Shown piece after piece: positions 36,699 to 38,433 of a DNA stretch of 64,000 bases. A model generated the notes under the pieces. It ran no database searches, was not told the origin of the DNA, and was given only the letters and a program-made list of their open reading frames with translations. The translations under genes were made by a program, and so were the position numbers. Within the stretch, counting starts at the first letter, position 1. The number at the start of each line of letters is the position of its first letter. This DNA is from a phage: the sequence record PX880100.1, one strand, 5' to 3'.

Positions 36699-36728
36699 TT
36701 GCCTTTTGCTTTAAATTTCTGATATAAT
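36699..36728 (+). promoter_or_regulatory. early promoter
   Basis: TTGCCT, 18-bp spacer, TATAAT, then AGTTATATAAATTGATGAAGGAG; approximate. Confidence 0.55.
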
Positions 36729-36758
36729 AGTTATATAAATTGATGAAGGAGTTAACTA

Positions 36759-37034
36759 ATGCAAAATCGTGTTATAGCAACTGGTATTGAAAGTGCAATC
36801 TGTAAATCCTGGGAAGGCTGGGAAGGTGAGATTGAATGGCTTTATTTCTATGATGTAGAACTTCTGCCGGAAGTTAAAGCTAAATGTGTTGAAGCTGGAA
36901 TGGCTCCAGATGCAAAAGCTGATATTGATATTTCAATGTCTGAACTTAAAGGCCGTGTAATTACTGTTAGTGATGAGGGTGAAGAAGTTTTCGAACTTCC
37001 ATTCTCCTTAACTGTCACTCCTAAGTTCGACTAA
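36759..37034 (+). CDS. hypothetical protein (91 aa)
   Basis: Track ORF downstream of promoter. Confidence 0.5.
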   Translation: MQNRVIATGIESAICKSWEGWEGEIEWLYFYDVELLPEVKAKCVEAGMAPDAKADIDISMSELKGRVITVSDEGEEVFELPFSLTVTPKFD

Positions 37035-37070
37035 CTAATACAGCACTGAGCAAGTTCTTTAAAATTTGAC

Positions 37071-37099
37071 TTGCTCAGTGCCTTAAAACTTGGTATAAT
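37071..37099 (+). promoter_or_regulatory. early promoter feeding a tRNA block
   Basis: TTGCTC, 17-bp spacer, TATAAT; followed by a 14-bp inverted-repeat leader hairpin and tRNAs; approximate. Confidence 0.5.
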
Positions 37100-37161
37100 A
37101 GTTATCTAATTTGGAAACATATTTAAAAGTGTTTAAACTAGTATTTGAATACTTTTAAATA

Positions 37162-37267
37162 TGTTGGATTAGTATCGTAGAGGTAGCGAAGCAGACTGTA
37201 AATCTGCCGACTCGGAAGGGTCTCGGGTGGTTCGACTCCATCATCCATCATCCATCATCCAACACCA
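37162..37267 (+). tRNA. tRNA-Tyr-like (anticodon GUA), class II, atypically long; boundaries uncertain
   Basis: Perfect anticodon arm GCAGA-CTGTAAA-TCTGC, D-stem TCG/CGA, T-arm GGTGG-TTCGACT-CCATC; 3' region carries ATCCATC-ATCCATC-ATCCAAC then ACCA; GTTGGAT pairs with the last copy. Confidence 0.5.
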
Positions 37268-37274
37268 AATTTAA

Positions 37275-37351
37275 GTCCTGTTAGACAAACTGGTAAAGTC
37301 ACTACCCTTTCAAGGTAGGATTTGCGGGTTCGATCCCCGCACAGGACGCCA
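37275..37351 (+). tRNA. tRNA-Glu (anticodon UUC)
   Basis: Acceptor GTCCTGT/ACAGGAC, anticodon arm CTACC-CTTTCAA-GGTAG, T-arm GCGGG-TTCGATC-CCCGC, encoded CCA. Confidence 0.8.
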
Positions 37352-37360
37352 ATTTCTGCA

Positions 37361-37436
37361 TTCCTAGAGTGTTACTGGACAGCATGTCGGTCTCCAAAAT
37401 CGTACGGTCTAGGTTCGAGTCCTAGTAGGTTTGCCA
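37361..37436 (+). tRNA. tRNA-Trp-like (anticodon CCA), acceptor pairing unresolved
   Basis: Anticodon arm TCGGT-CTCCAAA-ATCGT and T-arm CTAGG-TTCGAGT-CCTAG with encoded CCA; spacing to neighbouring tRNAs fits, but 5' acceptor strand could not be paired by eye. Confidence 0.4.
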
Positions 37437-37442
37437 AAATTT

Positions 37443-37517
37443 GCACCTTTAGCTGAGATGGATTAGCGCTTGCCTGAAGAGCTTGAGAGGTTCGTTCGAT
37501 ACGAACAGGGTGCACCA
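37443..37517 (+). tRNA. tRNA-Phe-like (anticodon GAA)
   Basis: Acceptor GCACCTT/AGGGTGC, D-arm GCTG..TAGC, T-arm GTTCG-TTCGATA-CGAAC, encoded CCA; anticodon loop CTGAAGA but stem has two U-U mismatches. Confidence 0.55.
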
Positions 37518-37519
37518 AA

Positions 37520-37807
37520 TTGAGGGGGCTGCTGATGCATCCTGAAAACTTCTTTATTTACTGCGCTGATAAGTCGCTGAAACGTAGAATTAACAAAGTC
37601 TATCATTATCGTGCTAGTCAACAGCCTTATGTATATGCTTTTGACGGTGATCACATTCCATTAGAACAATTATCTTGTGATTACATGATATTGAAGAACT
37701 TTGACGAGACAAAGATCTCAAGCGTTCATAATCGACAGAATCCCTTAACGTGGAAATATAAGAAGAAAAAGAAAGGCATCAAATTCTTAAAAAATGTAGT
37801 TGCTTAG
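37520..37807 (+). CDS. hypothetical protein (95 aa)
   Basis: Track ORF starting 3 nt after the tRNA; TTG start. Confidence 0.45.
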   Translation: MRGLLMHPENFFIYCADKSLKRRINKVYHYRASQQPYVYAFDGDHIPLEQLSCDYMILKNFDETKISSVHNRQNPLTWKYKKKKKGIKFLKNVVA

Positions 37808-37828
37808 TTTCCAAAAGTTCTGTATAAT
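37800..37828 (+). promoter_or_regulatory. PN25-type early promoter
   Basis: TTGCTT, 17-bp spacer, TATAAT, then AATTACATAAATTGAACTGGAG; approximate. Confidence 0.55.
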
Positions 37829-37857
37829 AATTACATAAATTGAACTGGAGAAGCAAC

Positions 37858-38082
37858 ATGACAGAACAAGAATTGAATGAACGTAAGCTGGTAATGCTCC
37901 GCTTACTAAACATTTTCTCTGGTATGGATGGGGGTATTGACTTTGTTCATCTACGTTCTTTTGTAGAAGAAGCAGAAGGTGAATCTATCACTAAAATCCT
38001 TAAACATATGGGTTTACTATTAGATGCTGCTGGTGTAGCAACGGAATATAACCTCGAAGATCTACCGGAGCGTATTAAATGA
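37858..38082 (+). CDS. hypothetical protein (75 aa)
   Basis: ATG at 37858 with GGAG RBS; track lists an extended frame from 37840. Confidence 0.5.
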   Translation: MTEQELNERKLVMLRLLNIFSGMDGGIDFVHLRSFVEEAEGESITKILKHMGLLLDAAGVATEYNLEDLPERIK

Positions 38083-38350: not shown

Positions 38351-38433
38351 GGGTCGTTAGCCAAGCGGTTTGGCGGTGGACTGTTAATCCATGTCGAAAG
38401 ACAACGTAGGTTCGAATCCTACACGGCCCGCCA
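38351..38433 (+). tRNA. tRNA-Asn (anticodon GUU) with an enlarged (~13-nt) variable region
   Basis: Acceptor GGGTCGT/ACGGCCC, D-arm GCCA..TGGC, anticodon arm GTGGA-CTGTTAA-TCCAT, T-arm GTAGG-TTCGAAT-CCTAC, encoded CCA. Confidence 0.65.

What the first reader, a model, noticed from the sequence alone, without database searches (positions are those of the whole stretch)
37162..37267. tRNA-Tyr-like gene with triplicated 3' acceptor-strand heptamer
The anticodon arm (GCAGA-CTGTAAA-TCTGC) and T-arm are canonical, but between the T-arm and the encoded ACCA lie three tandem heptamers ATCCATC-ATCCATC-ATCCAAC. The 5' strand GTTGGAT pairs perfectly only with the last copy, giving a ~106-nt gene, while spacing of the D-arm suggests a 5' end 4 nt further in. 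This may be a slippage duplication giving alternative 3' ends, or a modified tRNA whose acceptor region differs from host tRNA-Tyr; host tRNA-targeting nucleases are one conceivable selective pressure.
Basis: seen in the sequence. Interest (0 to 1): 0.45.

Follow-up and report, generated by a model that had tools for sequence, protein, structure and literature searches.

The report
Heptamer expansion inside phage tRNA-Tyr gene
This T5-like phage carries the family's known defence-countering tyrosine tRNA gene, but with a 14-base tandem repeat expansion, seen in no other sequenced relative, wedged between the T arm and the 3' acceptor strand, which probably weakens or disables the tRNA.

Summary
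At 37163-37267 (+) lies a tRNA-Tyr(GTA) gene. Its T arm (37226-37242) is followed by ATCCATC-ATCCATC-ATCCAAC-ACCA, a perfect 7-nt x 3.6 array at 37237-37261 that chance does not explain.

The window is a T5-like phage (Tequintavirus, 98.3% to AKFV33). Apart from 14 inserted bases, gene and promoter are identical to phage SP15 tRNA-Tyr. That tRNA is published as the strongly expressed tRNA that rescues T5-like phages from retron-Eco7 (PtuAB).

All 164 related phage records and 10 IMG/VR contigs carry one copy (a 91-nt gene). No 2- or 3-copy allele was found in any collection searched.

Compensatory changes among family alleles, and 66 distinct phage tRNA-Tyr genes, fix the 5' end at 37163. They also show that the acceptor 3' strand always abuts the T stem. 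The "5' end 4 nt further in" is a gene-caller artefact of the insertion.

Best reading: a private replication-slippage expansion that leaves three alternative acceptor registers.
- The last copy pairs perfectly and keeps ACCA, but loops out 14 nt.
- The first copy keeps normal geometry, but has a U-U mismatch and no CCA.

Folding predicts loss of the canonical T stem. The allele is likely hypomorphic or dead. This is a low-interest variant of a known gene.

The parts
37071..37099 (+). Promoter of the tRNA-Tyr-Glu-Trp-Phe cluster: -35 TTGCTC (37071-76), 17-nt spacer, TGn-extended -10 TATAAT (37094-99)
   Evidence: Read from the sequence. Identical to the stretch annotated as a T5-type promoter in AKFV33 and to the SP15 sequence. 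PMC11555353 reports the SP15 tRNA-Tyr promoter as unusually strong. The simple sigma-70 scan missed it because the -35 matches only 3 of 6.
37163..37267 (+). tRNA-Tyr(GTA) gene, 105 nt, from GTTGGAT to the encoded ACCA. It is the SP15-type allele plus 14 inserted bases.
   Evidence: 91/91 identity to SP15 tRNA-Tyr outside the insertion. The 5' end is fixed by compensatory acceptor changes among alleles and by spacing in 66 phage tRNA-Tyr genes.
37163..37169 (+). Acceptor 5' strand GTTGGAT
   Evidence: Pairs 7/7 with 37257-37263 and 6/7 with 37243-49 or 37250-56.
37175..37189 (+). D arm: TCGT-AGAGGTA-GCGA
37191..37207 (+). Anticodon arm GCAGA-CTGTAAA-TCTGC, anticodon GTA at 37198-37200
37208..37225 (+). 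Long variable arm (class II): C-GACTC-GGAA-GGGTC-TCG
   Evidence: It differs from the T5-type allele's variable arm. The variable arm is the published PtuAB/Septu cleavage region in host tRNA-Tyr (PMC13096335).
37226..37242 (+). T arm GGTGG-TTCGACT-CCATC
   Evidence: The same T arm occurs in 66 distinct phage tRNA-Tyr genes.
37237..37261 (+). Perfect tandem array TCCATCA x 3.6. Relatives have 1.6 units, so 14 bp (two units) are extra. Their exact position within the array is arbitrary, for example 37243-37256.
37243..37249 (+). Heptamer copy 1, ATCCATC. It is the acceptor 3' strand in the canonical position (abutting the T stem): 6/7 pairs with U2-U71, followed by A then TCC, so no CCA.
   Evidence: -23.9 kcal/mol.
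37250..37256 (+). Heptamer copy 2, ATCCATC
37257..37267 (+). Heptamer copy 3, ATCCAAC (the ancestral acceptor 3' strand, 7/7 pairs), plus discriminator A and encoded CCA
   Evidence: -27.8 kcal/mol; more than 99% of the modelled ensemble.

Best explanation
The locus is the T5-family tRNA-Tyr(GUA) gene of the SP15 allelic type. It is transcribed from its own strong promoter at the head of a Tyr-Glu-Trp-Phe tRNA cluster.

In relatives this tRNA is a working elongator tRNA. It also replaces host tRNA-Tyr destroyed by the retron-Eco7/Septu PtuAB nuclease.

In this genome the short pre-existing periodic motif TCCATCATCCA spans the T-stem/acceptor junction. By replication slippage it has gained two further 7-bp units (+14 bp). 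This step is inferred from the sequence pattern.

The transcript therefore offers three in-register 3' partners for the acceptor 5' strand.
- Pairing with the last copy restores the perfect stem and the encoded ACCA. It leaves 14 unpaired nucleotides between T stem and acceptor stem, which breaks the continuous acceptor/T helix that RNase P, EF-Tu and the ribosome rely on.
- Pairing with the first copy keeps normal geometry. It has a U2-U71 mismatch and needs the 3' tail trimmed and CCA added by host enzymes.

The extra copies also let the T-stem 5' strand mispair (GGGUGGU/AUCAUCC).

My inference is that the allele is a recent, private, neutral-to-deleterious mutation that reduces or abolishes the yield of functional tRNA-Tyr. 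It would be tolerated because the T5 tRNA region is dispensable in hosts without tRNA-Tyr-targeting defences.
For: Identity of the gene:
- 91/91 identity to SP15 tRNA-Tyr, with identical promoter and leader.
- Same gene order as AKFV33, HdH2, SP15 and T5.
- SP15 and T5 tRNA-Tyr rescue phage from retron-Eco7, and mutation of the stems or the anticodon abolishes rescue (PMC11555353).
- The T5 record notes that its tRNA-Tyr becomes an effective amber suppressor when the anticodon is replaced.

Private expansion:
- 164 phage records match this junction. None has a contiguous match across the array, and those spanning the query cover 14 nt less in the record.
- 10 IMG/VR contigs carry the single-copy form, and none has two or more copies.
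- There are no hits in genome contigs.
- The 16 metagenome hits are unrelated sequences.

Not a noisy assembly:
- Against AKFV33 over about 10.9 kb there are 142 substitutions but only 6 gap openings.
- This is the only gap longer than 1 nt, and none of the six lies in a long homopolymer run.

Slippage substrate: relatives already have TCCA-TCA-TCCA at this spot.

Structural constraint broken:
- In 66 of 66 distinct phage tRNA-Tyr genes with this T arm, the acceptor 3' strand starts immediately after the T stem.

Folding model:
- Probability of the canonical T stem falls from 0.92 (single copy) to 0.03 (window).
- A shifted 7-bp helix reaches 0.62.
- The acceptor pairs with copy 3 in more than 99% of the ensemble.
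Against: - No read-level data are available, so the expansion cannot be proven to be in the phage rather than in the assembly.
- No intermediate 2.6-copy allele was found, although two successive slips are needed.
- Function may survive through copy 1. Among 66 natural phage tRNA-Tyr genes, 27 lack an encoded CCA and 2 have only 6/7 acceptor pairs, so a mismatched, CCA-less version lies within the natural range.
- The nearest-neighbour model ignores coaxial stacking, T-loop/D-loop tertiary contacts and modifications. It therefore overstates both the advantage of copy 3 and the T-arm misfolding.
- The rest of the gene carries no substitution, so there is no sign of decay. That is expected if the event is recent, but equally expected if the gene is still under selection.
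Confidence: 0.55

Rival explanations
1. The expansion is real but the gene still yields a working tRNA-Tyr. The first heptamer, which abuts the T stem, serves as the acceptor 3' strand (G1-C72, U2-U71, then five Watson-Crick pairs, discriminator A at 37250). The 3' tail is removed by host exonucleases or RNase BN, and CCA is added by the host CCA-adding enzyme, as for CCA-less phage tRNA genes.
For: - Copy 1 sits at the only position seen in 66 of 66 natural phage tRNA-Tyr genes.
- 27 of those 66 lack an encoded CCA, and 2 of 66 have 6/7 acceptor pairs.
- All 66 have A73, which copy 1 preserves.
- Copy 1 is transcribed first, so it can pair co-transcriptionally (inference).
- The truncated RNA folds into a normal cloverleaf at -23.9 kcal/mol.
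- TyrRS identity elements (A73, G1-C72, anticodon, long variable arm) are untouched. This is established knowledge of bacterial tRNA-Tyr identity and was not tested here.
Against: - In the full-length RNA, the model places more than 99% of the ensemble on copy 3 and only 3% on the canonical T stem.
- The tail after A73 begins UCCA, with C-rich stretches that slow RNase T (own knowledge).
- All E. coli tRNA genes encode CCA, so this route is the repair pathway rather than the main one.
Confidence: 0.25
2. The two extra heptamers are an artefact of sequencing, assembly or a minority variant in the lysate. The phage population mostly carries the ordinary 91-nt gene.
For: It is unique among 164 phage records plus 10 IMG/VR relatives, no 2-copy intermediate is known, and no read data are available.
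Against: - Sequencing errors rarely create a perfect 14-nt in-phase tandem duplication.
- The surrounding 11 kb shows none of the homopolymer-length errors typical of noisy long-read assemblies: only five 1-nt gaps against a relative that is 1.5% diverged.
- The array (25 nt) is far shorter than a read, so assembly collapse or expansion is unlikely.
Confidence: 0.12
3. The expansion is adaptive. It would be an altered acceptor region that evades a host nuclease, a decoy that soaks up a tRNA-Tyr-targeting nuclease, or a slippage-prone on/off switch for the tRNA.
For: - The gene family is under documented pressure from tRNA-Tyr nucleases (PMC11555353, PMC13096335).
- Four allelic types with different variable arms coexist at this locus.
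- Over-expressed phage tRNA-Tyr can partly suppress degradation of host tRNA-Tyr by Septu (PMC13096335).
Against: - The published cleavage site is in the variable arm, which is unchanged here.
- Changing the anticodon abolished rescue, which its authors took to mean that the tRNA's role in protein synthesis, not decoy action, is what matters.
- There is no tract-length polymorphism in 164 relatives, so it does not behave as a contingency locus.
- No known tRNA tolerates a 14-nt insert between positions 65 and 66 (own knowledge; 0 of 66).
Confidence: 0.05

Closest known systems
Phage SP15 tRNA-Tyr (PhitRNA-Tyr_SP15) and phage T5 tRNA-Tyr, the tRNAs that counter retron-Eco7 PtuAB (Azam et al., Nat Commun 2024, PMC11555353)
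   Same: Identical promoter, leader and 91 nt of tRNA sequence to SP15. Same position at the head of the Tyr-Glu-Trp-Phe cluster in the tRNA-rich region.
   Different: 14 extra bases (two TCCATCA units) between the T stem and the ancestral acceptor 3' strand. T5 itself carries another allelic type (88 nt, GGGGGAG acceptor, different variable arm).
CCA-less phage tRNA genes matured by 3' trimming and host CCA addition (for example some phage T4 tRNAs; own knowledge)
   Same: If copy 1 is used, the gene behaves like the 27 of 66 phage tRNA-Tyr genes that lack an encoded CCA.
   Different: Here a perfect alternative partner with ACCA lies 14 nt downstream and competes for the same 5' strand.
Simple-sequence-repeat slippage mutations and contingency loci in bacteria and phages
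   Same: A perfect short-period tandem array that grew from a 1.6-unit seed already present in relatives.
   Different: Only 3.6 units, inside an RNA gene, with no length polymorphism among 164 relatives. There is no evidence for reversible switching.
Segmental amplification of the tRNA-Tyr gene in T6 escaping Septu (PMC13096335)
   Same: A repeat expansion that affects a phage tRNA-Tyr locus under nuclease pressure.
   Different: That case duplicates whole genes (kilobase units) and raises dosage. This one is a 7-bp unit inside the gene and more likely lowers function.

Membership tests
Bacterial-type (class II) tRNA-Tyr | GUA anticodon in a 7-nt loop with U33 and a purine at position 37 | tested here: met
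   CTGTAAA at 37196-37202. ARAGORN calls Tyr(gta), and the Rfam alignment agrees.
Bacterial-type (class II) tRNA-Tyr | Long variable arm with its own stem | tested here: met
   18 nt, GACTC-GGAA-GGGTC, forming a 5-bp stem.
Bacterial-type (class II) tRNA-Tyr | G1-C72 and discriminator A73 | tested here: met
   G37163 pairs with C37263 followed by A37264 (copy 3), or with C37249 followed by A37250 (copy 1). A73 is present in 66 of 66 relatives.
Bacterial-type (class II) tRNA-Tyr | 7-bp acceptor stem whose 3' strand directly continues the T stem, with no nucleotides between positions 65 and 66 | tested here: not met
   The perfect partner is 14 nt away from the T stem. The abutting copy gives only 6/7 pairs and no CCA. 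66 of 66 distinct phage tRNA-Tyr genes and all 164 close relatives meet this feature.
Bacterial-type (class II) tRNA-Tyr | Scores above the curated threshold of the Rfam tRNA model | tested here: met
   32.6 bits against a gathering score of 29. The single-copy SP15 gene has the same score, because the model uses only GGAU/AUCC of the acceptor.
T5-family anti-retron-Eco7 tRNA-Tyr (SP15 type) | Sequence identity with the experimentally tested SP15 tRNA and its promoter | tested here: met
   All aligned columns are identical from the -35 element to ACCA, except the 14-nt gap.
T5-family anti-retron-Eco7 tRNA-Tyr (SP15 type) | Same genomic position (tRNA-rich region, upstream of tRNA-Glu-Trp-Phe) | tested here: met
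T5-family anti-retron-Eco7 tRNA-Tyr (SP15 type) | Intact stems (stem-loop mutations abolish rescue in PMC11555353) | tested here: inconclusive
   All stems can still form, but the acceptor/T junction is interrupted and the model predicts T-stem mispairing.
T5-family anti-retron-Eco7 tRNA-Tyr (SP15 type) | Rescues phage from retron-Eco7 / is aminoacylated in vivo | not testable with these tools
   Needs plating and tRNA assays.
Phase-variable simple-sequence repeat (contingency locus) | Tract length varies among close relatives | tested here: not met
   All 164 phage records and 10 IMG/VR contigs carry the same 1.6-unit tract.

The most novel reading that the evidence does not exclude
The expanded allele is made and matured into a stable RNA whose acceptor 3' strand can slide among three registers. 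That RNA either still works in translation despite a 14-nt loop between the T and acceptor stems, which would be unprecedented for an elongator tRNA, or it acts mainly as a non-translating decoy for tRNA-Tyr-targeting nucleases such as PtuAB.
Probability: 0.06. Interest if true: 0.6.

Novelty: new variant of a known kind. Interest (0 to 1): 0.2.

Why it matters
The underlying gene is one of the few phage tRNAs with a demonstrated anti-defence role.

- If this allele is crippled, the phage should be sensitive to retron-Eco7/Septu-type defences that its relatives escape. It would be a ready-made natural mutant for testing how much the T/acceptor junction matters.
- It is a practical warning for annotation. 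The insertion makes ARAGORN and the Rfam model report a shifted or truncated tRNA.
- A reader could mistake a private slippage mutation for a designed feature.

Beyond that, it is an ordinary mutation in a dispensable gene.

Tried and rejected
- **Shifted 5' end.** ARAGORN (37167) and Rfam (37166) both give one. I rejected it. Compensatory acceptor changes in four alleles, the 26/27-nt spacing in 66 genes and ARAGORN's own 91-nt call on single-copy SP15 all place the 5' end at 37163.
- **Extended helix from the extra bases.** I looked for pairing of the 14 extra nt with the 5-nt connector TAGTA and found no complementarity (by eye; not in any fold).
- **Same expansion elsewhere.** I searched the phages collection, IMG/VR, metagenomes and one genome per species. 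The only hits were 16 metagenome contigs with the 20-mer in unrelated, non-tRNA contexts.
- **Coding explanation.** The only ORF over the array is a mechanical 37-aa one on the minus strand inside the tRNA. A 7-nt period is not a multiple of 3, so I rejected this.
- **Promoter scan.** The simple scan did not report the real promoter because its -35 is TTGCTC. I relied on identity to annotated and tested promoters instead.
- **Terminators.** The scan found none in 36700-37900.
- **Not used.** I did not use the protein or structure tools, because no protein is involved.

Full report
**What is there**

The window is a T5-like phage. Its tRNA region is 98.3% identical to Escherichia phage vB_EcoS_AKFV33, genus Tequintavirus. 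ARAGORN finds 24 tRNA genes between 33.8 and 43.9 kb.

The finding sits at the first gene of a Tyr-Glu-Trp-Phe cluster. Read directly from the sequence, the gene is:

| Element | Sequence | Coordinates |
|---|---|---|
| Acceptor 5' strand | GTTGGAT | 37163-69 |
| Connector | TAGTA | 37170-74 |
| D arm | TCGT-AGAGGTA-GCGA | 37175-89 |
| Position 26 | A | 37190 |
| Anticodon arm | GCAGA-CTGTAAA-TCTGC | 37191-207 |
| Variable arm | 18 nt, 5-bp stem, GGAA loop | 37208-25 |
| T arm | GGTGG-TTCGACT-CCATC | 37226-42 |
| Heptamer 1 | ATCCATC | 37243-49 |
| Heptamer 2 | ATCCATC | 37250-56 |
| Heptamer 3 | ATCCAAC | 37257-63 |
| 3' end | ACCA | 37264-67 |

Tandem Repeats Finder gives a perfect 7-nt x 3.6 array at 37237-37261. 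It is by far the longest perfect short-period run in the 64 kb: 18 matched positions, against at most 11 for other periods. The maximum in 200 shuffles was 13, and the expectation from composition is 1.6e-6.

**What the gene is**

The sequence from the promoter to the ACCA is identical to phage SP15, except for a 14-column gap in SP15. The promoter is -35 TTGCTC at 37071-76 and a TGn-extended -10 TATAAT at 37094-99. AKFV33 and HdH2 also have the single-copy form, annotated by tRNAscan-SE as a 91-nt tRNA-Tyr.

The SP15 tRNA-Tyr is the tRNA shown by Azam et al. (PMC11555353) to rescue T5-like phages from retron-Eco7.
- The PtuAB effector of that retron depletes host tRNA-Tyr.
- The tRNA is expressed from an unusually strong promoter.
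- Mutating its stems or its anticodon abolishes rescue.

A later paper from the same group states that PtuAB/Septu cut the variable arm of host tRNA-Tyr, and that the T5 tRNA resists because of its distinctive variable arm (PMC13096335). The T5 reference record notes that T5's own tRNA-Tyr becomes an effective amber suppressor when its anticodon is replaced. The ancestral gene is thus a known, functional, anti-defence tRNA.

**Where the 5' end is**

Three results argue against this.

- The T5 family has four allelic types at this locus. Their acceptor strands change together, always starting right after the conserved AAATAT leader: GTTGGAT/ATCCAAC, GGGGGAG/CTCCCCT (T5), GGGGGAA/TTTCCCC (fp01) and GGGCGTT/AACGCCC (EC104).
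- I collected 66 distinct phage tRNA-Tyr genes sharing this T arm from IMG/VR. The distance from the acceptor 5' strand to U33 is 26 or 27 nt in 64 of them. The window's distance is 27.
- ARAGORN calls the single-copy SP15 gene as the full 91 nt.

The shifted call is a side effect of the insertion.

**How unusual the insertion is**

- Among 164 phage records that match this junction, none contains two or more heptamer units. Full-length alignments span exactly 14 nt less in the record.
- Ten IMG/VR contigs carry the single-copy junction, and none carries a multi-copy one.
- A scan of one genome per prokaryotic species found nothing.
- The 16 metagenome hits to the 20-mer are unrelated sequences.
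- In all 66 distinct phage tRNA-Tyr genes, the acceptor 3' strand begins immediately after the T stem, and the discriminator is A.

The expansion is private to this genome, and it violates a constraint that is otherwise universal in the set.

**Origin**

Relatives already contain TCCA-TCA-TCCA across the T-stem/acceptor junction, which is 1.6 units of the same heptamer. Slipped-strand mispairing on the two TCCA repeats gives +7 bp. A second slip on the now longer array gives +14 bp. This is inference from the sequence pattern, and no 2.6-unit intermediate was found.

An artefact cannot be excluded without reads. However, the surrounding 10.9 kb differs from AKFV33 by 142 substitutions and only six gap openings. 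This is the only gap longer than 1 nt, and none of the six lies in a long homopolymer run. That does not look like a noisy assembly.

**Consequences for the RNA**

The acceptor 5' strand can pair in register with any of the three copies.

| Partner | Pairs | Geometry | 3' end | Model energy |
|---|---|---|---|---|
| Copy 3 | 7/7 | 14 unpaired nt between T stem and acceptor stem | encoded ACCA kept | -27.8 kcal/mol |
| Copy 1 | 6/7 (U2-U71) | canonical, abuts T stem | A then UCC, no CCA | -23.9 kcal/mol |

- In the nearest-neighbour model, copy 3 takes more than 99% of the ensemble.
- The extra copies let the T-stem 5' strand pair out of register (GGGUGGU/AUCAUCC). The modelled probability of the canonical T stem falls from 0.92 in the single-copy RNA to 0.03.
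- The model ignores coaxial stacking and T-loop/D-loop tertiary contacts, both of which favour the copy-1 form. A mixture is plausible.
- The copy-1 form is not outlandish. Of the 66 natural genes, 27 lack an encoded CCA and 2 have 6/7 acceptor pairs.
- A copy-3 molecule would have a flexible 14-nt hinge where RNase P, EF-Tu and the ribosome expect a continuous 12-bp helix. This rests on established knowledge of tRNA recognition and was not tested here.

**Verdict**

My best estimate (0.55) is a real, recent slippage mutation that lowers or abolishes functional output. It would be tolerated because the T5 tRNA-rich region can be lost in viable phages (T5n and SP15m in PMC11555353).

The rivals are:
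- real but still functional through copy 1 plus CCA addition (0.25);
- an artefact or minority variant (0.12);
- adaptive, as evasion, decoy or switch (0.05). The variable arm, which is the known nuclease target, is unchanged. The authors of the rescue study inferred that the tRNA's role in translation is needed. No tract polymorphism exists among relatives.

The gene is already known. The allele is a new structural variant of it, of modest interest, mainly as a natural test case and an annotation pitfall.

Noticed in passing
window 37116-37130 and 37151-37165: Perfect 15-bp inverted repeat in the tRNA-Tyr leader (AACATATTTAAAAGT / ACTTTTAAATATGTT). Its 3' arm runs into tRNA nucleotides 1-3, and in the precursor fold it forms a hairpin of about 22 bp that sequesters the RNase P site. 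The arms are largely conserved in SP15, AKFV33, HdH2, fp01 and EC104.
   Followed up: partly
window 37043-37055 and 37069-37081: 13-bp perfect inverted repeat just after the stop of ORF 36759-37034. Its 3' arm overlaps the -35 element (TTGCTC) of the tRNA promoter. No T-run follows, and the terminator scan did not call it.
   Followed up: no
window 38351-38433: tRNA-Asn(GTT) is 83 nt because of a 13-nt variable region containing a small hairpin (GTC-GAAA-GAC), which is unusual for Asn. AKFV33 annotates the same length; T5's is 78 nt.
   Followed up: no
L006 (phage DT57C) about 333-415: At the place homologous to tRNA-Tyr, DT57C has an unannotated tRNA-like sequence. It has a GTA anticodon loop and a 3' half identical to the Asn-type end (GGTTCGAATCCTACACGGCCCGCCA), with no matching 5' acceptor strand. 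It looks like a chimeric remnant lying upstream of the annotated 'RNA3'.
   Followed up: no
L035 (T5), L004 (fp01), L003 (EC104), L007 (SP15): Four allelic types of tRNA-Tyr occupy the same locus in T5-like phages, with the same T arm. The 91-nt SP15 type has a variable arm that differs from that of the three 88-nt types, and acceptor stems differ through compensatory changes. Since PtuAB/Septu cut the variable arm, this looks like diversification under nuclease pressure.
   Followed up: partly
window 37170-37174, and the same stretch in relatives: All T5-family tRNA-Tyr alleles have 21 nt between the acceptor strand and the anticodon stem, one more than E. coli tRNA-Tyr. In the SP15 type the best D stem (TCGT/GCGA) leaves a 5-nt connector instead of the usual 2. 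Several public annotations label this gene 'tRNA-OTHER' or 'tRNA-Pseudo-GTA', although it is experimentally functional.
   Followed up: partly
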